Positions 1 to 58,844 of a stretch of 64,000 nt of DNA are shown here, piece by piece; positions within the stretch are counted from its first letter, which is position 1, and each line of letters starts with the position of its first letter. Both the position numbers and the translations under genes were made by a program. The notes under the pieces are model-generated. The model did no database searches, was not told the DNA's origin, and saw only the letters and a list, made by a program, of their open reading frames with translations. The stretch covers positions 134,418,001 through 134,482,000 of the forward strand of contig NC_086097.1 in NCBI RefSeq assembly GCF_963921235.1, written 5' to 3'. The DNA comes from Mobula hypostoma. Its lineage: Eukaryota.

Positions 1-1387
1 ATGAAGTGCTTTGAAAGGTTGGTCATGGCCAGGATTAACTCCTGTCTAAGCATGGACCTGGGCCCGCTGCAATTTTCCTGTCGCTGCAATAGGTCTATAA
101 TGAACGCAATCTCACTGGCTTTCCACTCGGCCTTAGATCACCTGGATAATAATAATACCTACCTCAGGCTTTTGTATGTTGATTACAGCTCAGCGTTCAA
201 CACCACCATACCTTCAATACTAATCAACATGCTCCAAAACCTGGGCCTCTATATCTCCCTCTGCAGGAGACCACAGTAAGTGCAAGATCAAAAATAACAT
301 CTCATTGAAATCAACACTTGCACACCTCAAGCTTATGTAGTTAGTCCACTGTTCCACTCTCTACACACACATCTGTGTGGCTAGGCACATTCAAACAGCA
401 TCTATAAATTAGCCAATGACACAACAATTGTTGACAGAATTCTAGATGGCGACGAGGAGCCAAACAGGAGGGAGAGAGATCAGCTGGCTGATTCGTGTCG
501 CAACAGCAACCTTGCATTCAACGTCAGTTAGACCAAGGAATTGATTGTGGACTTCAGGAAGGGGAAGTCAAGTGAACACACACCAGTCCTCCTCGAGGGA
601 TCAGCAGTGGAAAGGGTGAGCAGTTTCAATTTCCTGGGTGTTAACTTCTCTGAAGCTCTAACCTGGCCCCAACATTTTGATGCAATTATGAAGAAGACAT
701 GTTAGCAGCTATATTTCATGAGGAGTTTGGTATGACATCAAAAACTCCTGCAAATTTCTACAGATGTACCGTGGATAGCATTGTAACTGGTTACATGACA
801 GTCTCATATGGAGGGGCAACTGCACAGAATCAGAAAAAGCTGAAAAAAATTCCAAACTCAGCCAGCTCCATTATGGGTATTAGCCTCCCCAACATCCAAG
901 ACACTTAAAAAAGACGATCACTAAGAACCCCATCACCCAGGACATGCCCTCTTCTCATTGCTACCATAAAGGAGGAGGTACAGGACCCTAAATGAACAAT
1001 AAAGCCATGAACACCACCTCAAACAAGAGAAAATCTGCAGATGCTGGAAATGACAAAATGCTGGAGGAACTCAGCAGGCAAGGGAGCATCGAAGGAAAGG
1101 AGTAAACAGTCAACCCTTCATCAGGACGGATGGAGGGTCTCAGGCCAAATCATCAACTGTTTACTTTTTTCCATAAGTGCTGCCTGGCCTGCTGAGTTCC
1201 TCCAGCATTTTGTGTGTTTTGCACCACCTCCATATTTTTGTTCTCTTTTTGCACTACTTACTAAATTAATTTTTTAAAACTGCTGAAACTTATATATATT
1301 TTAAAATATTATGTATTGCACTGTAAAGCTGCCACAAAACAAATTTCACACATACGCCAGTGATATTAAACATGATTGTGATTCTGA
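1..1387 (+). mobile_element. Rex1/Babar-type LINE, decayed 3' part (RT and C-terminal region), running off the window start
   Basis: MKCFERLVMARINSCL..LQF..NRS..AISLA.H..LDHLD..RLLYVDYSSAFNT and NFYRCTVDSIVTG motifs; many stops and frameshifts; GATTCTGA-type tail near 1387. Interrupted by the mini-element at 1021-1221. Confidence 0.8.
1021..1221. mobile_element. Penelope-derived fold-back mini-element with decayed hammerhead motifs
   Basis: Inverted arms acaaaatgctggaggaactcagcagg / cctgctgagttcctccagcattttgt; 9-bp TSD CACCACCTC at 1012-1020 and 1222-1230; resembles the 3' end of the GIY-YIG elements at 47-50 kb. Confidence 0.8.
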
Positions 1388-2445
1388 AACTCCAGGTTAC
1401 ACAGTGCGCCTGACAATGAACCGCAAGTAAAAATTTATACACAAGGCGAATGGCCACTCATTTTGTAAAATGTTCTGCTGAAATACTATAATACAAATTG
1501 AAACAGCTGCAAAACAAAGCTCTCCCTCAAGGTTTTACAATTCAAGAATAAAGATTATGGTGAAAAGAATGCGCTCCAAAAAGCATGTAACAAGTTCCTT
1601 CTTAAATGTCCAATAACTTTTCTCATTTTACATTCAATTTGTAACATTCACATGGACACACACAAAATACACTTTAATTACCAGGGTTTCAGACTGAAGC
1701 TGTTACTAAATCCCTCTATGTAACTGGAATAAATATTCACAGACAGTATACTTTGTGCAGCTAAAATAAATTTAAGTCAATATCTTTGCAAAGTCAATTT
1801 CAGAAGTCAATCAGTACATCTGAATTCACTAAATTAGAATTGAAATAATTTTATGCTATAAAAGGATATGTAACAGAAGTATAATTTTTTCAATTACATA
1901 TAATTTGTGAATATGTCAGTAAGAATATGTCAGACTATGATGAAGAAATGATGTGTATATTAATCTTTGCTGACCTATGGAAATATTTTGATTTTCCATC
2001 CCACAAAAGTTTTAAAACTCAGTGAGTACATTTTGAGCTTTTACGTACAGTAGGATCTGGCTAACTAGGACACATCGGGACCAGTACATTTTGGCCCAAT
2101 TAAGCAGCGACCCCACTCAGAGAAATTTCATGGATAATAGTATATTTCATGGATAATCATATATAATAATAGACAAACTACCATTAACTGAGTAACAAAT
2201 TATGTACTTAAATGAATTACAGAACAAATTAGAATACTAACAATATTACTACAGTACTATAAAACTGTAGTCCCTAACAGTTAATGGCAGAAGAATTCAT
2301 CCACAGTTATGCTAGGTGTTCTTTTGATAGACTGTAAACACATCAGTGCAGACACCTAGTGCAGATAATGGACTGCCTTCATACAGTATATTCAACGACT
2401 GCATCCTCCAAATCTTCATTTTCATTTAAACATTCAAGATGATTG

Positions 2446-5289
2446 TTGAAGTGCAGATTGTTATTATTGAATATAATATAGTTGGGATCACAGAGACATG
2501 GCTCCAGGGTGACCAAGGATGGGAGCTCAACATTCAGGGATATTCAATACTCAGGAGGGAGAGACATGAAAGAAAAGGAGGTGAGGTAGCATTGCTGATT
2601 AGAGAGGATATTAACGCAATAGAAAGGAAGGACATTAGTCGGGAGGATGTGGAATCGATATGGATAGAGCTGTATAACACTAAGGGGCAGAAAATGCTGG
2701 TGGGAGTTGTGTACAGGCCGCCTAACAGTAGTAGTGAGGTTGGGGATGGTATTAAACAGGAAATTAGAAATGTGTGCAATAAAAGAACAGCAGTTGTAAT
2801 GGGTGACTTCAATCTACATATAGATTGGGTGAACCAAATTGGTAAGGGTGCTGAGGAAGAGGATTTCTTGGAATGTATGCGGGATGGTTTTTTGAACCAA
2901 CACATCGAGGAACCAACTAGAGAGCAGGCTATTCTAGACTGGGTTTTGAGCAATGAGGAAGGGTTAATTAGCAATCTTGTCGTGAGAGGCCCCTTGGGTA
3001 AGAGCGACCATAATATGGTGGAATTCTTCATTAAGATGGAGAATGACATAGTTAATTCAGAAACAAAGGTTCTGAACTTAAAGAAAGGTAACTTTGAAGG
3101 TATGAGACGTGAATTAGCTAAGATAGACTGGCAAATGACACTTAAAGGATTGACGGTGGATATGCAATGGCAAGCATTTAAAGATCACATGGATGAACTA
3201 CAACAATTGTTCATCTCAGTTTGGCAAAAGAATAAATCAAGGAAGGTAGTGCACCCGTGGCTGACAAGGGAAATTAGGGATAGTATCAATTCCAAAGAAG
3301 AAGCATACAAATTAGCCAGAAAAAGTGGCTCACCTGAGGACTGGGAGAAATTCAGAGTTCAGCAGAGGAGGACAAAGGGCTTAATAAGGAAGGGGAAAAA
3401 AGATTATGAGAGAAAACTGGCAGGGAACATAAAAACTGACTGTAAAAGCTTTTATAGATATGTGAAAAGAGAAAGATTGGTTAAGACAAATGTAGGTCCC
3501 CTACAGACAGAAACAGGTGAATTGATTATGGGGACCAAGGACATGGCAGGCCAATTGAATAATTACTTTGGTTCTGTCTTCACTAAGGAGGACATAAATA
3601 ATCTTCTGGAAATAGTAGAGGACAGAAGGTCCAGTGAGATGGAGGAACTGAGGGAAATACATGTTAGTAGGGAAGTGGTGTTAGGTAAATTGAAGGGATT
3701 AAAGGCAGATAAATCCCCAGGGCCAGATGGTCTGCATTCCAGACTGCTTAAGGAAGTAGCCCAAGAAATAGCGGATTCATCAGTGATAATTTTTCAAAAC
3801 TCTTTAGATTCTGGACTAGTTCCTGAGGATTGGAAGGTGGCTAATGTAACCCCACTTTTTAAAAAAGGAGGGAGAGAAACCGGGGAATTATAGACCAGTT
3901 AGCCTAACATCGGTGGTGGGGAAACTGCTAGAGTCAGTTATCAAAGATGTGATAACAGCATATTTGGAAAGCGGTGAAATCATCGGACAAAGTCAGCATG
4001 GATTTGTGAAAGGAAAATCATGTCTGACGAATCTCATAGAATTTTTTGAGGATGTAACTAGTAGAGTGGATAGGGAAGAACCAGCGGATCTGGTATATTT
4101 GGATTTTCAAAAGGCTTTTGACAAGATCCCACACAGGAGATTAGTGTGCAAACTTAAAGCACTCGGTATTGGGGGTAAGGTATTGATGTGGATAGAGAAT
4201 TGGTTGGCAGACAGGAAGCAAAGAGTGGGAATAAACAGGACCTTTTCAGAATGGCAGGCAGTGATTAGTGGGGTACCACAAGGCTCAGTGCTGGGACCCC
4301 AGTTGTTTACAATATATATTAATGACTTAGATGAGGGAATTAAATGCAGCATCTCCAAGTTTGCGGATGACACGAAGCTGGGCGGCAGTGTTAGCTGTGA
4401 GGAGGATGCTAAGAGGATGCAGGGTGCCTTCGATAGGTTAGGTGAGTGGGCAAATTCATGGCAGATGCAATTTAATGTGGATAAATGTGAGGTTATTCAC
4501 TTTGGTGGCAAAAACAGGAAAACAGATTATTATCTGAATGGTGGCCAATTAGGAAAAGGGGAGGTGCAACGAGACCTGGGTGTCATTATACACCAGTCAT
4601 TGAAAGCGGGCACGCAGGTACAGCAGGCAGTGAAAAAGGCAAATGGTATGCTGGCATTTATAACAAGAGGATTCGAGTACAGGAGCAGGGAGGTACTACT
4701 GCAGTTGTACAAAGCCTTGGTGAGACCACACCTGGAGTATTGTGTGCAGTTTTGGTCCCCTAATCTGAGGAAAGACATCCTTGCCATAGAGGGAGTACAA
4801 AGAAGGTTCACCAGATTGACTCCTGGGCTGGCAGGACTTTCATATGATGAAAGACTGGATCGACTAGGCTTATACTTGTTGGAATTTAGAAGATTGAGGG
4901 GGGATCTTATTGAAACGTATAAAATCCTAAAGGGATTGGACAGGCTAGATGCAGGAAGATTGTTCCCGATGTTGGGGAAGTCCAGAACGAGGGGTCACAG
5001 TTTGAGGATAAAGGGGAAGCCTTTTAGGACCGAGATTAGGAAAAACTTCTTCAGACAGCGAGTGGTGAATCTGTGGAATTCTCTGCCACAGGAAACAGTT
5101 GAGGCCAGTTCATTGGCTATATTTAAGAGGGAGTTAGATATGGCCCTTGTGGCTAAAGAGATCAGGGGGTATGGAGGGAAGGCTGGTGCAGGGTTCTGAG
5201 TTGGATGATCAGCCATGATCATACTGAATGGCGGTGCAGGCTCGAAGGAGCCGAATGGCCTACTCCTGCACCTATTTTCTATGTTTCTA
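2446..5289 (+). mobile_element. CR1-clade LINE, 5'-truncated inside the endonuclease domain, young
   Basis: APE motifs (VGITETW, GVVYRPP, MGDFN, LDWVL, KSDHN), RT motifs (QHGF, YLDFQKAFD, GVPQGSVLGP, KFADD), CR1 C-terminus (RTRGH, RVVNLWNSLP), 3' UTR ending TTTCTATGTTTCTA. Confidence 0.95.
2448..5199 (+). pseudogene. CR1 ORF2 (APE endonuclease plus reverse transcriptase) with a single frameshift near 3871-3879
   Basis: ORFs 2439-3893 and 3913-5199 join as KKGGR|EKPGNYRPVSLTS if one GA dinucleotide is restored; no other stops; the extreme N-terminus is missing. Confidence 0.92.
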
Positions 5290-18355: not shown

Positions 18356-19350
18356 TGAAGTGCTTAGGACATTTGACTATTGCCTTTTGTAAATGCAGAT
18401 CATTTTCTATGCTATTTATTCATTTAGTTCCTCCTGTAAGTCCTAAAAAAAGATCATAGTTCTACAATGAACACATCAGAAGTTGTTATCAGGGTTTGTT
18501 TTAGTAACTTGAAGGCATGTTGCAGCCTTTTGGGCTTACTATAGCAGATTCTACAACTTCAGATGGGTTAATTTTCTGTCTTTATCAGTCAACCATCTAT
18601 AATATATGATCAGTTTGTTTCTTTATCCATCTTTTCCTTGTTCTGAAGGAGTGGGGGACATGTCCAGTTTGACCTGCCAGACATGTAGTCCTGCTTTGTA
18701 TTTTGCAAATCCACACACTTGTTCTTGATTTGCTGCCATTCACTTATTGACCAGATGACCTTGCTTACAGCTCATCTCCATGGTCATCACAGTTTCACCC
18801 TATCGGGGACATTCCATTCCCTCACCATCTCCAAAGTTTAACAGGTTTTTATTTGTTTCTTTCCAAGTTCTGACAAAGGGGCTTCAACCTAAAACATTGG
18901 CTCTGTTTTCCTTCACTCAAATGTAGTCATTATGTATAATTGTTAATCATGCAATTAATAACACATGGAATTCCTACGCCATCATCATCGAATACCAAAT
19001 CCATCACCCACAAAATGAGTGAAAATAAATTCTTTCTCAGCCTTCCCAGATAAATGATAAAAAATAATAAGTAAATGGAAGTGATTATCAGGGAGTAATC
19101 TAATTTCAGGCTTCAGAACACCATCATTTATGGGAATGATGTGAACCCTTTGATCAATATTACTAAGAATAATTCCTGGGTGTCTATTATTTGCTATTTA
19201 AATCAATTTACTGAATAAAAAATATTGAGAGGTTATTTTCATTTCAACTGATTGGTTGTTGACCACACGGTACAATTTTATCAACACAAATGACAAAGGC
19301 TGGACTGTACTGAGGGAAATAATCGTTATCGGCAACAGTCCAGTTTCATT

Positions 19351-19410
19351 CAACACACATCAAAGTTACTGCTGAACGCAGCAGGCCAGGCACCATCTCT
19401 AGGAAAAGGT
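19351..19410 (-). mobile_element. 60-bp Penelope-derived insert matching the sequence 3' of the hammerhead cleavage site
   Basis: 16-bp direct repeat ACAGTCCAGTTTCATT at 19335-19350 and 19411-19426; the insert is the reverse complement of the segment following GAAACGTC at 48785-48851. Confidence 0.85.
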
Positions 19411-19836
19411 ACAGTCCAGTTTCATTGTCGGTTTTCCTGATCTGCTCATAGAACAAAAATCTATTGGACTAATTAAACAATTCTATAATGCAAGTTTAAT
19501 AAATAATTTAGATATACTTCTCTCTGATTTTAGGTTTTAATGCATCTTACTATTAATCATTTCAGCTCTTCAGGATTGTTTCCAGACTAACATCATTCAA
19601 TATTATTCAAAGAATAAACTTGAACAGGGTTTCAATGTTATTAACCATAAATAACTTGTCTTAAATGGAATGCCAAAGGTTACATCACTCTTATAAAAAT
19701 CTGGCCTGTTTAATCTGCATTTATTGCAGCTCTTCATGCATCTTGTGGTGAAAGGACTATTGACCAATCTACTCTTTCACCTTCTTCACTCTGGAGACAA
19801 GGAGAGCAAACTAATCTCTTAACAATCACCAAATTT

Positions 19837-40574: not shown

Positions 40575-42245
40575 CAAAAATTAATGGATAAAGCCCAGTC
40601 CATCATGGGCCCATCATTGAGCACATCTACACAAAACCCTGTTGCAGGAAAGCAGTGTCCATCTCAAGGACCCACCACCACCCAGGACATGCTCTCTTCT
40701 TGCTGCTACCATCGGGAAAAGGGTACAGAAGCCTCAGGGCTTCCACCACCTTGTTCAGGAACACACAGAAAATGCTGGAGGAACTCAGCAGATAAGGCAG
40801 CATCTTTGGAAGTGAATAGACAGTCAAGGCCCTTCTTCAGGGCTGAAAAGGAAGGGAGGAAATGCCTGAATAAAGAGGTGGGGGAGGAGAAGGAGGCTAG
40901 CTAGAAGGTAATAGGAGAAACCAGGTGGGTGGGTAAGGTCAAGGGCTGTAGAAAGAGGAATCTGATAGGAGAGGAGTGTGGACCATAGGAGAAAGGAAAG
41001 GAGAAGTGGAAGCAGGGGAAAGAAATGGGCAAGTAAGAGGTGAAGGTCCCGTGAGAGGAACAGAAGAGGGGGGGGAGATATTTTTTAACCAGAAGGAGAA
41101 ATCAATAGTCATGCCATCAGGTAGGAGGGCACCCAGACAGAATATAAGGTGTTGCTCCTCCACCCTGAAGGTGGCTTCATCATGGCACAAGAAGAGGCCG
41201 TGAACCAACATGTCGGAATTATAGTTTTTGGCTACATGGAAGTTCTGCTTTTGGCGAATTGAGCGGAGGTGATTGACAAAGTGGTCCCCCAAGTTACGAC
41301 AGGTCTCACCAGTGTACAGGAGGCCGCATCAGATGCATCAGACACAATAAGTGACCCCAGCAGATTCGCAGGTGAAGCGTTGCCTCACCTGAAAGGACTG
41401 TTTGTGACCCTGAGTGGAGGTAAGGGAGGAGGTGAATAGGCAGATGTAGATCTTAGGTCGCTTGCAGGATTAAGTGGCAGGAAAGAGATTAGTGGGGACG
41501 GAAAATCGGACAAGGGAATCGCGGAGCAAGGGATCCCTATGGAAAGCTTGTGGTGGGTGGAGGAGGTAAAGATATGTTTAATGGCAGGATCCCTTTGGAG
41601 ATGGCAGAAGTTGTGGAGAATGAGGTGTTGCTTGTGGAGGCTCATGGGGTGGTAGGTAAGGACAAGAAGAACTCTATCACAGTGGGAAGATGGGGTGAGC
41701 ATGGATGTTTAGGAAATGGAGGAGATGTAGGTGAGGGCAGTATCAATAGTGGAGGAAGGGAAACCCCATTCTTTGTAGAAGTACATCAATGATGTCCTGA
41801 AACAAAAAGCCATATCCTGGGAACAGATGCGGTGGAGGCGAAGGAACTGAAGAAAGGGAATAGCATTTTACAGTAGATTGGGTGGGAAGAGGTTCAGAAA
41901 TAGTTATTCCCTCTTAACCATAAGATCTTGAACCAAAGGGGGTAATTTCACTTGCCCCATCATTGGAATATTCCCACAATCTATGGACTCACTTTCAAGG
42001 ACTCTTCATTTTGTGTTCTCGATATTTATTGCTTATCTATTTATTATTATTATTTTGTTTTTCTGTACAATTTATTGACTTTTGCACAATGGTTGAACAC
42101 CCAAGTTGGTGTGGTCTTTTACTGATTCTACTTTGATTATTATTCTATGGATTTAATGAGTATGCCCACAAAAAATGAATCTCAAAGTTGCATGTAGTGT
42201 CGTATTTGTACTTTGATAATAACATTACTTTGAACTTCGAGATTT
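40575..42245 (+). mobile_element. Rex1/Babar 3' fragment split by a Penelope insertion
   Basis: 40575-40762 and 41892-42245 join into the family sequence ...ccaggttcaggaa(c)agttatt... Confidence 0.7.
40763..41891 (-). mobile_element. Penelope-like element, 5'-truncated and decayed (RT C-terminus, GIY-YIG, terminal repeat)
   Basis: LVLTYHP, LQRDP, GDHFVNHLRS..VAK..EEQHLIFCLG.L.PDGM..DFS; imperfect TSD GTTCAGGAAC / GTTCAGAAAT. Confidence 0.85.
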
Positions 42246-43317: not shown

Positions 43318-45811
43318 TTCTAAGTTCAATCTTTCGTCTACATTTTGTTGACAATAAAGGGTAACTGCTTAAAATCGAGAAACACACACCAAGAAGCAGA
43401 ACTAAAGTTCAAAAAGTTCAAAGCAAATTTATTATCAAAGTATACATGTAGGATAGACAATCACGAGATTCATTCATTTCTTGCTAGAGAGAGCAGAATA
43501 CAGAGAATGTGTGTACATTTCTCCATTTATGTAATTTCAACCAAACTTTACAAACTAATGAGCTCTCTACTTATTTTTGTAGACAAGTGGCAAAGGCTGA
43601 TAACTCCCAATTCTGAGTCTAACACACCCTACACCTATCATGATGGAAATAACAGCGAGGATTTCCCTTCCTCCTTTTGGTTTGAAATATATTAAAAATT
43701 ATCTGCTCATTGACAAATTTCCATTTGTGAAAAAGATTGCTGTATACCAACTAGCACCTCTCTTAGTACGTTACAGAAGTGACTGCTCTTTAAGAGGTCC
43801 GGAGGGCATAATCACAGCACTCAGGACTTAATACTGCTGAATAATGTCAGACAACCAGCCTTCCCCAGGCATATCAAGGTGGCCATTTCTCGGGAAAAGT
43901 CAATCACCTGCTGCTTGATGACCTACTGAATGTTTCTAACATCCTCTATTTAAAGTTCAGATTTCTATCAACTGCAGCTTTTTGGCTTTTCCAAAAGTAC
44001 CTTACTCAGTATAAAATGTGTTGGGAAGACCCAAACTCACGTAAAGCACTATAGTAATGCAAATTTTTTTTTTTCTTTTGATATGACTGTGCAGGGAATG
44101 CTGGCTCAACTTCAACACTTAAGAGAAGTTTGGATAAGTATGTGAATGGGAGGGAGACAGAGGATCATGGGCCAAGTGCACGTCGATGGGACTAGGCAGA
44201 ATAACTGTTCGGCATGAACTAGACGGGCTGAAGGGCCTGATTCTGTACTGTGTGTTTCATGACCCTATGACAAAAATGGTATAATCAGCAAGCAAAAGGC
44301 CAGTGACACTTTATGCACAATGTTTTTTCATTATTCATAAAGTGACACTGGGCATTTGCTTGCTGATTATGAACTAATTCCACTCAGTAGTTTAACAGAA
44401 GTTATGCAAAAGACATTGCAGTCATTTGAAGATTCTGGAGCATTCTCTCTTCTGAGACTATTATCTGCATGGCTCCATTATAAATTAACACAAAATTAGC
44501 AGAACTAAAACAAACCATAAAATGATCAGCTCAGCAGCACAACAGTCATATGCCAACATTTTCATTTATATTTTTCTCTTTGCCTTAGAGTGAGTATATT
44601 CATAGACTACAGTGACATACTTCTGCATTCTGTCAACGGTTTATTCTACTAAGTGATGTTATCGGTCTAACTAAAGAAAATAGCAAAATTATTACAGTGA
44701 CTGTTGGAAACTAAACATCTGGACATTTTGGGGACAGATTTACACGCTGTCTGTCAGATAAAACACTGCCTGCTGTTTATGGAACAAGGATATGCCTGGC
44801 AGCTTTTCCCAGCTCTGCTATCAGACTTCTTCAGTAACCATTATTCCACCCTTACTGAAGAATGACATCCTGTCTTGGCTTATGGAGTTATTTCCATCAG
44901 TGGCAGTACCTCAGACAGCCTCTGATTGTAATCATTTTTCTGGGTAAAAATGTAAGTCAATTTACATTTCATAGTCCATTGGATCTTGGGGAAATATTGT
45001 GCTCAACCAACATATGTGAACTGATTATTGTATCAAAGTGCAACAACAACAATTTCTATTTATTTAGCACCTTTAATGCTGCAAAACATTTCACAGAAAC
45101 CTCATCAAGCATAATTCAGGGCAGATGACCAAAACCTTGGAAAAAGTGGTGGGTTTTAAGCAGCATCTCAAAAGAAGAGAGGCAAAAGCTCTAAAGACCG
45201 CCGAGTGCCATTTTAAAGAACCTCTTTAAAGTGGGGTGGTAGAATAGAGGTTTAGGGGGAATTCCAAAGGGGCCCTTGGCAGCTGAAGGTATGAGTGTCA
45301 GTAACAGAGCTGTTAAATTTCTGGAAGAGAAGATTTTGATAAGTTGTAGAGGTTATATGCAAAAATGTGCAAGGAATTTGATGAGAATTTTTAAATCAAC
45401 ATAAATGATTCAAAATTACTCATCGATTTGCTTGTGCATTGGAAGATCTATTATGCATTCTTCAGTTCACTTTACCAATGTCTCACTCAAAAGGGTTAAG
45501 AATGGCATCTTAGAATATCAGTGTGGTTCATTCCTGCTGAATTTGGCTTGGAGGATGTTTACTGCAACTCTACAGTTGCATGGAGCACAGAGCAAAAGTA
45601 GAAGCTTAAAGCAAAACACAGTGAAACACCGCGAAACATTACAAGCAATCCTGTATGTAGTGTGATTTTACTCTTGAACTGCGAAAAAGGAAAGAAATAA
45701 GCCATAGGAGCAGAATTAGGCCATTCAGCCCATCAAGTCTGTTCTGCCATTTGATCACAGCCGAATTATTTTCCCTCACAACCTCATTCTCCTGCCTTCC
45801 CCATTACCTAT

Positions 45812-46997
45812 AATTGGATTAGATTAGATTCAACTTTATTGTCATTGTGCCAAGTACAGATACAAAGACAATGAAATGCAGTTAGCATCTGACCAGAAAT
45901 GCAAAGAATATTGTTATTTACAAAAATAACTGCAAATAAAAAGTAAATGCTACAGCACACAAATATAAAAATACTGAGACAGTATAATATGGGTGTAATA
46001 CTGATTAGTGCTGTGATGTGAGGTTCAGCAAGGTCACAGCCTCAGGGAAGAAGCTCTTCCTGTGCCTGCTGGTGCGGGAGCGGAGGCTCCTGTAGCACCT
46101 ATCGGATGGGAGGAGAGTAAAAAGTCCATGGTTAGGGTTTGATGCATCCCTGAGAATGCTTTTCGCCCTGCCCAGGCAGCGTTTATGGTAGATGTTCTCA
46201 ATGGTGGGCAATTGGGTGCGATAATCCACTGGGCAGTTTTCACCATACGCTGGAGTGCTTTGCAGTCAGATACGGGACAATTGCCATACCACACTGAGAT
46301 GCAGTTGGTGAGTATGCTCTCAATGGTACAGCGCTAAAAGTCCATCAGTATCCTGGGACAGAGGTGAGCTTTCTTGATGTTCTGCAGGAAATAAAGGTGC
46401 TGTTGCGTCATTTTGATCAGGATGGAGAAGTTCAGGGACCAGGTGAGATCCTCGGAAATGTGGACACCAAGGAATTTGAAGCTTGATACATCCTCCACTA
46501 CAGCTCCGTTGATGTAGATGGGGACATGAGTGTGGCTCCTAGCATGCCTGAAGTCCACAATGATCTCCTTGGTCTTCTAGGTGATAAGGGCCAGGTTGTT
46601 GTCGGCACACCACGCGGTCTGGTGCTGGACCTTGTCCCTGTAGGCCGTCTCATCATCCCTTCTGATCAGGCCAACCACCGTGGTGTCGTCTGCGAACATG
46701 ATTATGGAGTTCGAACCATGTACAGGAACGCAGTCATAGGTGAAAAGGGAGTACAGAAGAGGGCTCAGCACACAGCCTTGAGGCACACCGGTGTTCAGGG
46801 TGAGAGTGGAGAACGAGAGGTCATCTAACTTAACTGATTAGGGTCTGTTAGTCAGAAAGTCCAAGGTTCAATTGTAGAGGGATGAGCTGATACCAAGCTG
46901 GCAAAGTTTGGCAATCAGCTTGGAGCGGATCACAGTATTGAATGCCAAACTAAAGTCAATGAACAGCATTCTGACGTAAGAGTTGGTGAGTTGGTGC
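45812..46997 (-). mobile_element. Rex1/Babar LINE (RT and 3' end), relatively young
   Basis: [72 protein letters not shown]; (AATCT)n tail. Confidence 0.88.
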
Positions 46998-47465
46998 TTA
47001 TTAATCAAGAATCTATCAACCTCTGTTTTAAACATACTTAATGACTTGACCTCCACAGCAGTCTGTGGCACTGAATACCACAGATTCACCACTCTCTGGC
47101 TAAAGAAATTCCTCCTCATTTTTGCTGTAAACAGTCATCCTTCTTATTCTTAGGCTGTGCCCTCTGGACCTGGACTCTCTCACTACTCAAAATAAATTCT
47201 CTCTACATCCTTCTATCTAGGCCTTTCTAAATTTCAAAAGGAAATATAAGCAAGTACATGTCCAGAACTATCAAACGCTCCTCATATGTAAACCTTTCAT
47301 TCCTGTTATCATTCCCCTACTCTCCTCCGGAGCCTCTCCAATACCAGCACATCCTATCCTTGATATGAGACCCAAAAACCGTTCACAATACTCCAAATAT
47401 GGGCAACATACATAAAAGTTGCTGGTGAACGCAGCAGGCCAGGCAGCATCTCTAGGAAGAGGTGC

Positions 47466-47501
47466 AGTCGACGTTTCAGGCCAAGACCCTTCGTCAGGAC
47501 T
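47466..47501 (-). ncRNA. Minimal type I hammerhead ribozyme motif
   Basis: AGTC-CTGACGA-AGGGTCTTGGCCT-GAAA-CGTC^GACT on the minus strand: intact core, helix I AGUC/GACU, palindromic ACGU in place of helix III. Confidence 0.75.
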
Positions 47502-48032
47502 AACTGAAGGAAGAGTGAGTAAGGGATTTGAAAGCTGGAGGGGGAGATCCAAAATGATAGGAGAAGACAGGAGGGGGAGGGATGGAGCCAAGAGCTGGAC
47601 GGGTGATAGGCAAAAGGGATACGAGAGGATCATGGGACAGGAGGTCCGGGAAGAAAGACGGGGGGGGGGGGACCCAGAGGATGGGCAAGGGGTATATTCA
47701 GAGGGACAGAGGGAGAAAGAGGAGAGTGAGAGAAAAATGTGTGCATAAAAATAAGTAACAGATGGGGTACAAGGGGGAGGTGGGGCATTAGCGGAAGTTA
47801 GAGAAGTCGATGTTCATGCCATCAAGTTGGAGGCTACCCAGACGGAATATAAGGTGTTGTTCCTCCAACCTGAGTGTGGCTTCATCTTTACAGTAGAGGA
47901 GGCCGTGGATAGACATGTCAGAATGGGAATGGGATGTGGAATTAACATGTGTGGCCACTGGGAGATCCTGCTTTCTCTGGCAGACAGAGCGTAGATGTTT
48001 AGCAAAGTGGTCTCCCAGTCTGTGTCGGGTCT

Positions 48033-48257
48033 CGATGTGGCCTTTTATATATTGGCGAGACCCAACGCAGCTCCCGATGTGGCCTTTTATATATTGGCGA
48101 GACCCGACGCAGCTCCCGATGTGGCCTTTTATATATTGGCGAGACCCGACGCAGACTGGGAGACCGCTTTGCTGAACATCTACGGCTCCCGATGTGGCCT
48201 TTTATATATTGGCGAGACCAGATGCAGACTGGGAGACCGCTTTGCTGAACATCTACG
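48033..48257 (+). repeat. Tandem repeat of the YIG-coding segment (37, 42 and 73 nt, then the full copy)
   Basis: GCTCCCGATGTGGCCTTTTATATATTGGCGAGACC restarts at 48070, 48112 and 48185, with a partial copy from 48033. Confidence 0.92.
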
Positions 48258-48752
48258 CTCTGTCTGCCAGAGAAAGCAGGATCTCCCAGTGGCCACACAT
48301 TTTAATTCCACATCCCATTCCCATTCTGACATGTCTATCCACGGCCTCCTCCACTGTAAAGATGAAGCCACACTCAGGTTGGAGGAACAACACCTTATAT
48401 TCCGTCTGGGTAGCCTCCAACCTGATGGCATGAACATCGACTTCTCTAACTTCCGCTAATGCCCCACCTCCCCCTCGTACCCCATCTGTTACTTATTTTA
48501 ATACACACATTCTTTCTCTCACTCTCCTTTTTCTCCCTCTGTCCCTCTGAATATACCTCTTGCCCATCCTCTGGGTCCCCCCCCCTTGTCTTTCTTCCCG
48601 GACCTCCTGTCCCATGATCCTCTCGTATCCCCTTTTGCCTATCACCTGTCCAGCTCTTGGCTCCATCCCTCCCCCTCCTGTCTTCTCCTATCATTTTGGA
48701 TCTCCCCCTCCCCCTCCAACTTTCAAATCCCTTACTCACTCTTCCTTCAGTT

Positions 48753-48788
48753 AGTCCTGACGAAGGGTCTTGGCCTGAAACGTCGACT
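48753..48788 (+). ncRNA. Minimal type I hammerhead ribozyme motif
   Basis: AGTC CTGACGA AGGGTCTTGGCCT GAAA CGTC^GACT; predicted cleavage after 48784. Confidence 0.75.
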
Positions 48789-49820
48789 GCACCTTCTTCC
48801 TAGAGATGCTGCCTGGCCTGCTGCGTTCACCAGCAACTTTTATGTGTGTTGCTTGAATTTCCATCATCTGCAGAATTCCTGTTGTTTGACTCCAAATATG
48901 GTCTGCCTGAAGCCTTGTAAGCTGCAGTATTAATTCTTGCTTTTATATTCTAGTCTTACCAGTCAAGATGGTACCTGTGTGCAATGGTCCCACGTTTGTT
49001 TTTCATCCTGATTGTGATTCTGGAACTGTTGGAGGCTGTAATTTGAAGTTTGGAGATCGTTTGCTTGTTTCACCACTCTGCAGTCTCCGAGAGGATTCTG
49101 GGAGGCTGAGGCGCCAAGCATGCTGAGCTCGTTGACTTCATTAACTTTGCCTCCAACTTTCACCCTGCCCTCAAGTTTACCTGGTCCATTTCCGACACCT
49201 CCCTCCCCTTCTAGATCTTTCTGCCTCTATCTCTGGAGCCAGCTTATCTACTGATGTCTACTATAAGCCTACTGACTCTCACAGCTATCTGGACTATTCC
49301 TCTCCAGTTCTCACCCTGTCTCTTGCAAAAATGCCACCTTCTCGCAATTCCTCCATCTCTGCCGCATCTGCTCTCAGGATGAGGCTTTTCATTCCAGGAC
49401 GAGGGAGATGTCCTCCTTTTTTAATGAAAGGGGATTCCCTTCCTCCACCATCAACTCTGCTCTCAAATGCATCTCCCCCATTTCACACACATCTGTTTTC
49501 ACTCCGTCCTCCTGCCACCCCACTAGGAATAGGGTTCCCCTTGTCCTCACCTACCACCCCACCAGCCTCCGGGTCCAACATACAATTCTCTGTAATTTCC
49601 GCCATCTCCAATGGGATCCCACCACTAAGCACATCTTTCCCTCCCCCCCTCTGCTTTCCGCAGGGATCGCTCCCTACGCAGCTCCCTTGTCCATTCATCC
49701 CCCCAATCCCTCCCCACTGATCTCCCTCCTGGCACTTATCCTTGTAAGCGGAACAAGTGCTACACATGCCCTTACACTTCCTCCCTTACCACCATTCAGG
49801 GCCCCAAACAGTCCTTCCAG

Positions 49821-50147
49821 GTGAGGCGACACTTCACCTGTGAGTCGGTTGGGGTGATATACTGCATCCAGTGCTCCCGATGTGGCCTTCTATATATTGG
49901 CGAGACCCGATGCAGACCGGGAGATCGTTTCACTGAACACCTACGCTCTGTTCACCAGAGAAAGCAGGATCTCCCAGTGGCCACACATTTTAATTCCACG
50001 TCCCATCCCCATTCTGATATGTCTATCCACGGCCTCCTCTACTGTAAAGATGAAGCCACTCTCAAGTTGGAGGAACAACACCTTATATTCTGTCTGGGTA
50101 GCCTCCAACCTGATGGCATGAACATTGACTTCTCAAACTTCCGCTAA
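49821..50147 (+). pseudogene. GIY-YIG endonuclease domain of the Penelope-like element (domain open, upstream ORF broken)
   Basis: VIY..CxxC..YIGET, R..EH, E and terminal G.N motifs. Confidence 0.88.
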
Positions 50148-50452
50148 TGCCCCACCTCCCCCCATACCCCATCTGTTATTTATTTATATACACACATTCT
50201 TTCTTTCTCTCTCTCTCTCTCTCTCTCCTTTTTCTCCCTCTGTCCCTCTGACTATACCCCTTGCCCATCCTCTGGGTTTTCCCCCCCTCCCCTTTTTCTT
50301 TCTCCCTGGGCCTCCTGTCCTATGATCCTCTCGTATCCCTTTTGCCAATCACCTGTCCAGCTCTTGGCTCCATCCCTCCTCCTCCTGTCTTCTCCTATCA
50401 TTTTGGATCACCCCTCCCCCTCTCAAATCTCTTACTAGCTCTTCTTTCAGTT

Positions 50453-50488
50453 AGTCCTGACGAAGGGTCTCGGCCCGAAACGTCAATT
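50453..50488 (+). ncRNA. Minimal hammerhead motif with weakened helix I
   Basis: AGTC CTGACGA AGGGTCTCGGCCC GAAA CGTC^AATT. Confidence 0.65.
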
Positions 50489-52024
50489 GTACCTCTTCCT
50501 AGAGATGCAGCCTGGCCTGCTGTGTTCACCAGCAACTTTGATCTGTGTTGCTTGAATTTCCAGCATCTGCAGATTTCCTCATGATAGCAGGCTCTGCAGC
50601 TGCTCTACCACCATCTTACACAAAGATAGGAAAACTGCATTCCTAACAGCACAAACAGCACTTCAGGGTAAGTTTTGCCTGTGACAGGACTGGTGACAAA
50701 ATGAGCACTGATTTCTTCAGAACATCCAGTAATACAATCTTCCTGCAACACCAAGTTTCCTGGCTCTTTTCACCCAGTTTCTTCTGTTCGTAAGATAATG
50801 TGAATTTTGGGGAAGAATGTAGCATGACTGAAGTTAGTTTGATCCCACCCAATGACAACCTACTAACCAAGCATCAATGATAAATCAGCCTTAAAAACAG
50901 AAACCAGCACATGCCAACTACGCAACTAAGGTTTAAAGAGGCATCAATATTTCCCAGGCCTGGAATATCACCTCAAGGTTGGACACATCAGAGATTAGAC
51001 TAGCTGAAAACTAACAAAGCTCATCAGAGACACAAATTGGTTAATCAGCATCTAGACTTGATTCTGCAATCAACGTGCCATGAAATGAATGCACTAACCT
51101 CTATGCCACAAGCTAATTTATGTTGAAGATGCATTTTTATATAAAAAATTGTCGCACAAGCTCCATTTGTGACATTTATTTTACTGCCATGTTTTTAAAA
51201 AGGAACAATACCCAGTAAATGGAGGACAATCTATTTTAGAATCAGTATAAGCCCTTCAGTTAAAATTAATTTAAAAAAAATCTATGATTAACTCTTGTAT
51301 TATACTGTATGAGTTCAACCTCAAAACTGTGTGCTGGAACAATCAAAATGAAAAATGTTTCTTTAGGCCTGCTGTGACATTTGTTTCTGAAATATTCACA
51401 TTGTTGCCTTCATTTATTTTAACTGACAGCATTTTATTTACTCAAAGCAACTATGGGTGGTGTACTATAATTGGATATTGATATCTCATATTGATACAGG
51501 CCACCAATAAATTGCATGGCAACAACTTCAAATATCAGTTGCCATCTACAATGCTAAAAAATGAAATAGTATAAGTGCTTGATATCAGAAGCACATAGTG
51601 TGACCAAGAAACAGTTCCTCTAAATTTTACATTAAGAACCACAGAACTATAACACCATTTTCTAAGTTAATATGTAAAATCACTTTTTACACAGTTTTTT
51701 TATCTACGCCAGACTTTTTATTAATGAAAATTTTAAAAAGCATAAATGCTTCAAGCAAGCTCTGAATGCTGCAATAATTGCATGCAAACAACATATCGGA
51801 AAGATCTTACAGAGAATCATTCTAACCAGGTACTTAGGAGTTTAATAATTAGATTTTGCTTGGTAGTTGCTGGCAGTTCTATTGGGAATTCCCCTCATTC
51901 AAACCCGAAAATACCAGCAAGTTCAGAGCTTGGGCAAGTCGTTACCAAATCCTGGGAGTCGCAAATTTGCGAATAAATGCCATATAGCCAGCAAAATCTG
52001 CCTATTGGCAATGCTCTTGAACTC

Positions 52025-58221: not shown

Positions 58222-58729
58222 CATCTCCTGGTGCCTCTGGATACAATATCCAGTTTCTCCCTCCATAGTCTACTTAAGTACAGCATGATATACACAGGAG
58301 ATGTCACATGAAAAAAAAGTGCCGGCTGATTGCTTTATCCCACTGGCGTTTTTTCAATGCAGTTCACACAGATTTTGACTAGATGAATTTTGACAAATAG
58401 AAGACATGAGCTTCTAACCCTAACGGAGTTACAGCCTATGACAGGAAGATTTTGACTTGATCAATCACTCAAAATGAAGTGAAAGATAAAGTTGTAAAAT
58501 TTCAGAGTTATGGTCTCAAACCCTTTAACAATGCAACCATACATAACATGGGACAGTAAGGTACAATGCATATCATACAGCAATGGGAAAACATGCAAAA
58601 CTACTCGCATTTCAGTAGTCATGAGGTCAGATAAAATTTTGTTAGCTGCACCCTTACAACAAGTTTTATTCATTCATCACCCCTCTGCTTATTGACCTAT
58701 AGTGCTTCAAACCTAGCACTATGATTTTA

Positions 58730-58828
58730 CGAGTCCTGACGAAGGGTCTCGGTCCGAAACGTCAACTGTACCTCTTCCTGGAGATGCTGCCTGACCTGCT
58801 GTGTTCACCAGCAACTTCAATGTGTGTT
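58730..58828 (+). mobile_element. 99-bp Penelope-derived insert: hammerhead motif plus short 3' tail
   Basis: Perfect 12-bp TSD ACTATGATTTTA (58718-58729, 58829-58840); AGTC CTGACGA AGGGTCTCGGTCC GAAA CGTC^AACT at 58732-58767. Confidence 0.87.
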
Positions 58829-58844
58829 ACTATGATTTTAAAGT

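What the first reader, a model, noticed from the sequence alone, without database searches (positions are those of the whole stretch)
48033..48257. Palindrome centre looks like iterative re-copying from one fixed template end
Seen: three units restart at the identical nucleotide (GCTCCCGATG at 48070, 48112, 48185) but end at different points (42 nt, 73 nt, full length). A fourth partial unit joins the inverted arm through a 2-nt CG overlap. The inverted arm and the neighbouring copy (about 49873) each carry this segment at most once. Inference: the RT reached the RNA 5' end, jumped back and re-copied it three times, then self-primed on its own cDNA to make the inverted arm. Established: Penelope RTs are the retroelement group closest to telomerase RT, so repeat-addition-like behaviour would be notable.
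Basis: partly seen in the sequence, partly recalled or inferred. Interest (0 to 1): 0.75.

Follow-up and report, generated by a model that had tools for sequence, protein, structure and literature searches.

The report
Stuttered seam inside a Penelope insertion
A Penelope-type jumping gene in a ray-like fish landed as two back-to-back half copies, and the short repeats at their seam most likely record stalled attempts to join the two new DNA ends, a repair-type scar rather than telomerase-like copying of RNA.

Summary
Units start at 48070, 48112 and 48185 and run 42 nt, 73 nt and full length; a partial unit overlaps the inverted arm by CG.

The whole structure (47403-48888) is one insertion of a Neptune/Nematis-type Penelope-like element, inside a 13-bp target duplication. 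One arm carries the known 36-nt tail. The other ends at the tail-less boundary shared by five other copies in the window, which fits two separately primed cDNAs rather than a snap-back.

Both short-unit ends fall on the last unpaired base before the two predicted stems of the template (83 of 96 folding settings; noticed post hoc). The inverted arm's last 7 nt overlap the first 7 nt of the right arm (5/7).

Best reading (0.55): the left cDNA primed on the right cDNA's 3' end, stalled at hairpins, let go and re-primed at that same end. This resembles polymerase-theta templated inserts; the enzyme is unknown.

Limits: this is one locus, no genome was held, the array junctions were not seen in independent data, and ten other family go-back joints show no clear hairpin-foot bias.

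The parts
47390..47402 (+). Target-site duplication, left copy (13 bp)
   Evidence: Exact 13-bp word abutting both ends; only two occurrences in the window
47403..48034 (-). Inverted arm: 5'-truncated Penelope-like copy, element positions E29 to E668, without the tail
   Evidence: 95.6% identical to the right arm; 18 substitutions in 630 aligned columns; outer end at the tail-less family boundary
47466..47501 (-). Minimal hammerhead-like motif in the inverted arm
   Evidence: Identical to the right-arm motif; read by eye against the description in PMC4209133; not found by Rfam
48028..48034 (+). Inversion seam: last 7 nt of the inverted arm, standing in the place of E1-E7 (5 of 7 alike, last 2 exact)
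   Evidence: Best of 30 registers tested; nhmmer aligns 48028-48070 to E1-E43
48033..48069 (+). Unit 0, E6/8 to E42, one private G>A change
48070..48111 (+). Unit 1, E1 to E42 (next G fits either side)
48112..48184 (+). Unit 2, E1 to E73; joined to the next unit with no shared base
48185..48888 (+). Right arm: 5'-truncated copy from inside the GIY-YIG coding region (E1) to the end of the tail
   Evidence: 88% identical to the neighbouring copy; frame continuous with the GIY-YIG C-terminus
48228..48290 (.). Predicted outer stem (9-bp perfect inverted repeat, E44-52 with E98-106); its 5' foot is where the 42/43-nt units end
   Evidence: Pairing probability 0.93-1.0 for E44-59; coordinates
48258..48272 (.). 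Predicted inner stem (5 bp, E74-78 with E84-88); its 5' foot is where the 73-nt unit ends
   Evidence: Pairing probability 0.74-0.87; coordinates
48753..48788 (+). Minimal hammerhead-like motif of the pseudo-LTR
   Evidence: matches the min-HHR description in PMC4209133 (passages); no Rfam match
48853..48888 (+). 36-nt Penelope 'tail', present on this arm only
   Evidence: a 30-40-bp one-sided tail is described in PMC8557442, PMC3846280, PMC11167929
48889..48901 (+). Target-site duplication, right copy
   Evidence: junction spanned without differences by one X1 contig
46994..47389 (-). Old LINE fragment into which the element inserted
   Evidence: tblastn pieces at 43-61% identity to the RT-bearing ORF at 3850-5199; the joined flanks match 4694-4753 at 75% across the site
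49105..50580 (+). Neighbouring, separate copy of the family (RT C-terminus, Cys linker, GIY-YIG, pseudo-LTR); used as the intact comparator

Best explanation
One retrotransposition event of a Neptune/Nematis-type Penelope-like element. Shown: one insertion in a 13-bp target duplication, two head-to-head truncated arms from one source lineage, a tail on one arm, and an array whose units share one start and end at predicted hairpin feet. Inferred: (1) the endonuclease cut both strands 13 bp apart and each 3' end primed a cDNA, one at each side of the tail; (2) both cDNAs stopped early inside the GIY-YIG region, the left at E29-30 and the right at E1; (3) the left cDNA's 3' end paired weakly with the last 7 nt of the right cDNA and was extended on it; (4) a polymerase poor at opening hairpins stalled before the outer stem (E43), let go and re-primed on the same cDNA end through a single G, and did so again; (5) it then got into the outer stem, stalled before the inner stem (E73), rejoined the end without homology, and finally read through. 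The fixed point is thus a DNA end, not an RNA end. One of the two 42-nt units may be a later slippage copy. The enzyme is not identified: host polymerase theta or the element's own RT working on DNA. The array has no function; it is a scar in a dead copy.
For: TSD and single-event structure. Of 9 family 3' ends in the window, 6 stop at the tail-less boundary, 2 carry the full tail and 1 a part of it; a second small head-to-head insertion at about 1021-1221 has the same one-sided tail and a 9-bp TSD. A purified lizard Penelope protein cuts and extends both strands and starts RT at the two ends of the tail (PMC11167929, main text read). E43 and E73 are the only strict left-hand stem feet in E10-110 and 2 of 6 in the 704-nt arm; chance 4e-4 for two exact hits, 3.5e-3 within 1 nt, 5e-3 given that both ends are G. 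Both are feet in 83 of 96 settings of molecule, temperature, span and threshold, with never more than 3 feet. The seam register is the best of 30 and places the two 3' termini end to end. Snap-back would skip three nearer sites. Single-base priming, priming within 10 bp of the end, and overlapping inserts from one flank (16 of 17 cases) are described for polymerase theta in worms (PMC5068794, passages). Unit divergence matches arm divergence: 3 observed, 3.2 expected.
Against: One locus. The hairpin rule was noticed after looking, rests on two distinct end points and on predicted folds. The same strict test found no foot in the decayed left arm or the neighbour. All 10 go-back joints displayed for the family show no clear bias for hairpin feet: percentiles 0.05-0.94, 1 of 10 in the top 5%. 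Units of 35-73 nt are longer than the mostly <25-bp inserts reported for polymerase theta in worms (PMC5068794). The E73 junction has no shared base. The arms show no sign of two different templates: at 15 polymorphic sites checked they agree at 9, and the 6 differences look like private changes, so a one-cDNA origin is not excluded by sequence. The same stems form in the RNA, and in the intact neighbour E43 is also the 3' foot of a long RNA hairpin, so a structure-guided RT re-entry could give the same ends. An older view ascribes the tail to endonuclease resolution, not to a second priming (PMC8557442).
Confidence: 0.55

Rival explanations
1. One reading: the RT reached a broken RNA 5' end at E1, re-entered the same RNA at E73, E43 and E42/43 (repeat-addition-like), and the inverted arm arose by snap-back on the cDNA or from a second primer.
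For: The same sequence results whichever direction is assumed. Penelope RT starts at internal, structured RNA sites without homology in vitro (PMC11167929). Non-LTR RTs jump templates and snap back in cells (PMC11371274, PMC11331408, passages). The extra G at the E73 junction fits an untemplated base used for a jump (inference). E43 is also the 3' foot of a long RNA hairpin in the intact neighbour. Self-priming was proposed for Penelope palindromes (PMC3846280).
Against: It needs an RNA end at E1, release and refolding of RNA from the hybrid, and a last round that stops at E6-8. No boundary stem lies 5' of E1; E1 is a bulge in a 5' arm. Unit length is not fixed. Snap-back must skip three nearer sites and end at the tail-less boundary.
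Confidence: 0.17
2. Later growth: the insertion had a simpler seam, and the array was added afterwards by breakage and repair at the centre of the 640-bp palindrome or by replication slippage (42-nt period; GCTC at E1-4 and E73-76 for the longer unit).
For: Units 1 and 2 have no private change in 115 nt (P = 0.19 at the arm rate). E72 is the only position in E10-110 with a 4-nt match to the start. Short local duplications are common in this family (10 go-back joints shown).
Against: Slippage from a plain fold-back cannot create E1-5, so at least one restart junction needs another origin. The observed long unit is 73 nt with an extra G, not the 72 nt that the 4-nt match predicts. No derived change is shared between units, and overall divergence equals that of the arms.
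Confidence: 0.18
3. The array was already in the source element or its tandem transcript and was copied passively.
For: Some go-back joints in the family are multi-copy (depth 87-493 against about 12 for this locus in X1), so duplications can be inherited.
Against: The inverted arm, from the same lineage, and the neighbour read through E29-73 without it. Neither array joint is among the best-supported joints in X1 or X5, though counts were saturated, 285 joints were hidden and the joints land on the first base laid. 0 of 21 fetched proteins repeat the YIGET motif, a weak test.
Confidence: 0.06
4. Assembly artefact at a palindrome centre.
For: Penelope tandem/inverted structures trouble assemblies (PMC8557442). 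The array junctions were not seen.
Against: Units differ by private substitutions, two of three at CpG, with no indels. The clean TSD and tail argue for a real insertion. The right junction is in an X1 contig.
Confidence: 0.04

Closest known systems
Head-to-head (inverted pLTR) insertions of endonuclease-bearing Penelope-like elements, e.g. Pen2a_Av (PMC3846280; PMC8557442; passages read)
   Same: Inverted truncated arm, short TSD, 30-40-bp tail on one arm, hammerhead-like motif, short overlap at the seam
   Different: Here the seam holds three extra partial units with a shared start; the passages read describe overlaps and short palindromes at seams, not such arrays
Polymerase-theta templated inserts made by reiterated priming (PMC5068794; PMC2895639; passages read)
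   Same: One-base priming near a DNA end, aborted extension, overlapping inserts all from one flank
   Different: Units here are 35-73 nt rather than mostly under 25; the two ends are retroelement cDNAs; stops sit at predicted hairpins; the enzyme is untested
L1 twin priming (Ostertag and Kazazian 2001, recalled and seen only as a citation; an intermediate is described in bioRxiv 10.1101/2024.12.14.628481, passages)
   Same: Both target ends prime a cDNA and the two are joined internally inside one TSD
   Different: In L1 the two pieces come from different parts of one RNA; here both arms copy the same 3' part from two neighbouring start sites
Telomerase and DRT2/DRT10 repeat addition (PMC12632851, PMC12039810; passages read)
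   Same: Repeated copying that ends at one template position, by a related RT group if the rival reading holds
   Different: No fixed unit, no alignment repeat used at the junctions, no boundary stem 5' of the template, no dedicated RNA; only 2-3 cycles
R2 5'-junction 'snap-back' and 'extra template' classes (PMC11371274, PMC11331408; passages read)
   Same: cDNA 3' end extended on another nucleic acid before joining
   Different: The passages read describe single events, not reiterated returns to one end

Membership tests
Endonuclease-bearing Penelope-like element | C-terminal GIY-YIG endonuclease after the RT, with two cysteines between GIY and YIG | tested here: met
   Neighbour ORF 49629-50147: Pfam GIY-YIG E 5.7e-4, 20.6 bits, below the 22.6 cut-off; CxxC between the motifs; relative P0017 (44% identical) has RVT_1 then GIY-YIG
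Endonuclease-bearing Penelope-like element | Pseudo-LTR with minimal hammerhead motif | tested here: met
   Motif at 48753-48788 and 47466-47501 read by eye against PMC4209133; Rfam gave no match; cleavage untested
Endonuclease-bearing Penelope-like element | Inverted 5'-truncated copy, 30-40-bp tail on one end, TSD | tested here: met
Endonuclease-bearing Penelope-like element | RT core groups with PLE RTs in a tree | not tested
   The window's copies lack the RT core
Neptune/Nematis clades | CX2-5CxxC linker before the endonuclease | tested here: met
   CKRNKCYTC in the neighbour ORF and in P0006, P0007; definition from PMC8557442
Neptune/Nematis clades | Placement in one of the two clades by RT phylogeny | not tested
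   No tree was built
Telomerase-type repeat addition | Fixed repeat unit | tested here: not met
   Units of 35-37, 42 and 73 nt
Telomerase-type repeat addition | Alignment segment repeated at both template ends and used at each cycle | tested here: not met
   1 shared base at E43, 0 at E73; the one 4-nt match (E72) is not the junction observed
Telomerase-type repeat addition | Boundary stem just 5' of the template | tested here: not met
   In the intact neighbour, probability of a 3'-arm base at E-8..E+3 is 0.0 in 6 of 6 folds; the neighbour is another subfamily copy
Telomerase-type repeat addition | Processive re-initiation by the RT on RNA | not testable with these tools
   Needs biochemistry
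Polymerase-theta templated inserts | Priming by one or two bases close to the opposite end | tested here: inconclusive
   Met at the seam (2 exact, 5/7) and at E43 (1 base); not met at E73 (0)
Polymerase-theta templated inserts | Overlapping inserts from one flank | tested here: met
   All three extra units copy the right arm's start
Polymerase-theta templated inserts | Inserts mostly under 25 bp | tested here: not met
   35-73 nt here; size from PMC5068794 (worms)
Polymerase-theta templated inserts | Dependence on POLQ | not testable with these tools
   Needs a transposition assay in POLQ-null cells

The most novel reading that the evidence does not exclude
The Penelope RT itself returns repeatedly to structure-defined points of one 5'-truncated RNA and re-copies it to the same end, a crude form of the repeat addition seen in telomerase and DRT10, and such centres are its genomic footprints. 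A milder novel reading, inside the best explanation, is that the element's RT rather than a host polymerase does the reiterated end joining on DNA.
Probability: 0.17. Interest if true: 0.75.

Novelty: new variant of a known kind. Interest (0 to 1): 0.4.

Why it matters
How Penelope-like elements make their tandem and inverted insertions is still called undefined (PMC8557442), and the steps after first-strand synthesis are unvalidated (PMC11167929). A seam that preserves failed joining attempts gives the direction and order of synthesis. It favours two primed cDNAs joined end to end and makes a testable prediction: variable ends at 5' feet of cDNA hairpins. The family is huge (217,413 contigs laid in one run), so the prediction can be tested by counting. 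As a single locus it is a dead scar with no function, and it is not evidence of telomerase-like activity.

Tried and rejected
No whole genome is held for this window, so fold-back centres could not be tabulated.

Scans for more copies found nothing: hammerhead pattern in viral, genome and metagenome contigs, 0 loci each; protein scan of metagenomes, 600 pattern hits and 0 confirmed.

Protein searches gave 5 and 16 relatives, the named ones from rays, none with a repeated YIGET motif. No solved structure matched. Rfam gave one chance hit.

Contig laying used the right arm and flank only (48185-49080), with 4 of 23 listed runs. X19 and X20 laid 0 reads and are no test. X1 and X5 saturated the counts, so neither the array joints nor the presence of the insertion in organism B could be judged. 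B's word share of 0.59-0.62 is no more than the repeat part of the query could give.

The test for two different RNA templates was negative. The hairpin-foot test on 10 family joints was not clearly positive. The random-flank control for the TSD gave 8 of 20,000, but sampling did not exclude the real site.

Considered and rejected: a coding role for the in-frame 14-codon repeats (no start, truncated dead copy); a cap-derived G at E1 (E1 lies inside the ORF and G is the family base; inference); pure slippage from a plain fold-back (cannot supply E1-5). Look-ups of earlier findings by sequence and by words returned nothing.

Full report
1. Observation. The array is as described. With E1 = 48185, the + strand reads: inverted arm to 48034; unit 0 = E6/8-E42 (48033-48069); unit 1 = E1-E42 (48070-48111); unit 2 = E1-E73 (48112-48184); right arm E1-E704 (48185-48888). 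The tandem scores are 237 and 278, against at most 68 for the other three rows in the window. There are two distinct restart junctions, E42/43 to E1 (twice) and E73 to E1. Once one 42-nt repeat exists, a second can arise by slippage in any phase.

2. What it is. The sequence belongs to a Penelope-like element with a C-terminal GIY-YIG domain (Pfam 20.6 bits, under the cut-off), the Cys linker of Neptune/Nematis (definition in PMC8557442) and a minimal hammerhead-like motif. The closest proteins are from rays: 89% to a Mobula hypostoma model, 73-80% to near-full-length Hypanus sabinus models. The family is very abundant: 217,413 and 182,801 contigs were laid in runs X1 and X5. A 13-bp word flanks the whole structure at 47390-47402 and 48889-48901, and the flanks belong to an older LINE fragment. 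Arms and array therefore lie in one insertion. The right arm ends with 36 nt that the left arm lacks. Of 9 family 3' ends in the window, 6 stop at the tail-less boundary, 2 have the full tail and 1 part of it. Inverted truncated arm, one-sided tail and TSD are the published typical layout (PMC3846280, PMC8557442). For a lizard element, the purified protein cuts and extends both strands, and the two RT start sites bound the tail (PMC11167929).

3. Real, and how old? The arms differ by 18 substitutions in 630 columns. The units carry 3 private substitutions in 223 nt against 3.2 expected, none shared; the family majority confirms that the two changes in the right arm are derived. This fits a real array about as old as the insertion. 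Power is low: units 1 and 2 have none in 115 nt (P = 0.19). One X1 contig spans the right junction with no difference. The array joints were not among the 15 + 12 rows shown; 285 + 273 rows were hidden and counts were saturated. X1 may be the assembly's own sample. Presence in organism B could not be judged.

4. Direction of synthesis. The same text results from an RT moving right to left (variable re-entry, fixed stop) or from a DNA polymerase moving left to right on the single-stranded cDNA (fixed start, variable stop). Four points favour the second. (a) The unit ends E43 and E73 are the last unpaired bases before the 5' arms of two nested stems. They are the only strict feet in E10-110 and 2 of 6 in the arm; chance is 4e-4 exact, 3.5e-3 within 1 nt, 5e-3 given G. 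Both hold in 83 of 96 folding settings. (b) The last 7 nt of the inverted arm match E1-E7 at 5 of 7, the last two exactly, the best of 30 registers. Unit 0 therefore also starts at the same end, by overlap of two 3' termini. (c) A snap-back after the array would bypass three nearer copies of its landing site. (d) The inverted arm's outer end is a family start boundary. This model needs one truncated cDNA end, whereas the rival needs an RNA end reached repeatedly and a last round that stops short.

5. Results against this reading. The hairpin rule is post hoc and rests on two end points. The strict test gave no foot in the decayed left arm or the neighbour. The 10 family go-back joints displayed show no clear bias (percentiles 0.05-0.94); they are multi-copy joints of unknown origin. 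The stems also form in the RNA, and in the intact neighbour E43 closes a long RNA hairpin, so structure could also guide RT re-entry. The arms agree at 9 of 15 polymorphic sites checked, including minority alleles at 48265, 48771 and 48841, and give no sign of two templates. I used 15 of the 40 displayed sites. The E73 junction has no shared base, and a 4-nt match lies one base away. The units are longer than the inserts typical of polymerase theta in worms.

6. Comparison. It works like the reiterated priming described for polymerase theta: single-base priming, about 85% within 10 bp of the end, overlapping inserts from one flank in 16 of 17 cases (PMC5068794). Membership is not shown, because size differs and the enzyme is untested. 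It is not telomerase-type repeat addition by the features tested: no fixed unit, no alignment repeat in use, no boundary stem 5' of E1 (definitions in PMC12632851). The kinship of Penelope RT and telomerase stands. Self-priming for Penelope palindromes is an earlier proposal (PMC3846280). Two unchecked earlier notes on this genome (e1-7808845, e1-7790794) suggest two templates in other head-to-head pairs, one of them only weakly; they are leads, not support.

7. Novelty. The element and the layout are known. I found no description of a multi-unit, same-start array at a Penelope seam in the listings of searches or in the passages read; the library lacks most subscription papers. I read the abstract, main text and start of methods of PMC11167929 (parts 1-2 of 4) and term-matched passages only of PMC8557442, PMC3846280, PMC11371274, PMC2895639, PMC11331408, PMC4209133, PMC5068794, PMC12039810, PMC13580325, PMC12632851, 10.64898/2026.07.22.740005 and 10.1101/2024.12.14.628481. 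No supplements were opened; the product sequencing of PMC11167929 (Figs S1-S2) may bear on re-initiation. L1 twin priming is recalled.

8. Verdict. A real, ordinary Penelope-like head-to-head insertion with an informative scar at its seam. Best reading: reiterated, hairpin-stalled extension of one cDNA on the other's end (0.55). Rivals: later growth (0.18), RT re-copying of RNA (0.17), inheritance (0.06), artefact (0.04). New variant of a known kind; interest 0.4, rising to 0.75 if the RT proves to re-initiate on RNA.

Noticed in passing
window 1012-1230: A second, 200-bp head-to-head Penelope-like insertion with a tail on one arm only and a 9-bp TSD (1012-1020, 1222-1230); both arms start near the hammerhead motif and the seam has no array.
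   Followed up: partly
window 19335-19426 and 58718-58840: Short tail-less copies of the family with 16-bp and 12-bp TSDs; the first begins close to the predicted ribozyme cut, the second at the ribozyme's first stem.
   Followed up: partly
window 48753 (contigs of run X5): Two different go-back joints (from 48827 with G, from 48863 with GG) return to the same base, the start of the hammerhead stem I. This is another same-start, different-end pattern, but not shown to lie in one locus.
   Followed up: no
window 49862-49915: In the intact neighbour, E-11 to E43 folds as one long RNA hairpin; both arms of the main insertion are truncated inside it.
   Followed up: partly
window 2430-5199: A LINE with AP-endonuclease and RT domains in two long overlapping frames (487 and 449 aa), i.e. 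broken by one frameshift; the label CR1-like is recalled.
   Followed up: no
window 44281-44370: Isolated hairpin with 42-nt arms, 88% complementary, 6-nt loop; unexplained.
   Followed up: no
window 40757-41894: An older, about 70% identical Penelope-like copy on the - strand, ending at the tail-less boundary.
   Followed up: partly
P0002, P0005, P0008, P0009, P0014, P0021: Pieces of this endonuclease appear inside annotated ray proteins (ATP synthase subunit, VKORC1-like, mucin-2 and others), probably exonised repeats or annotation errors.
   Followed up: no
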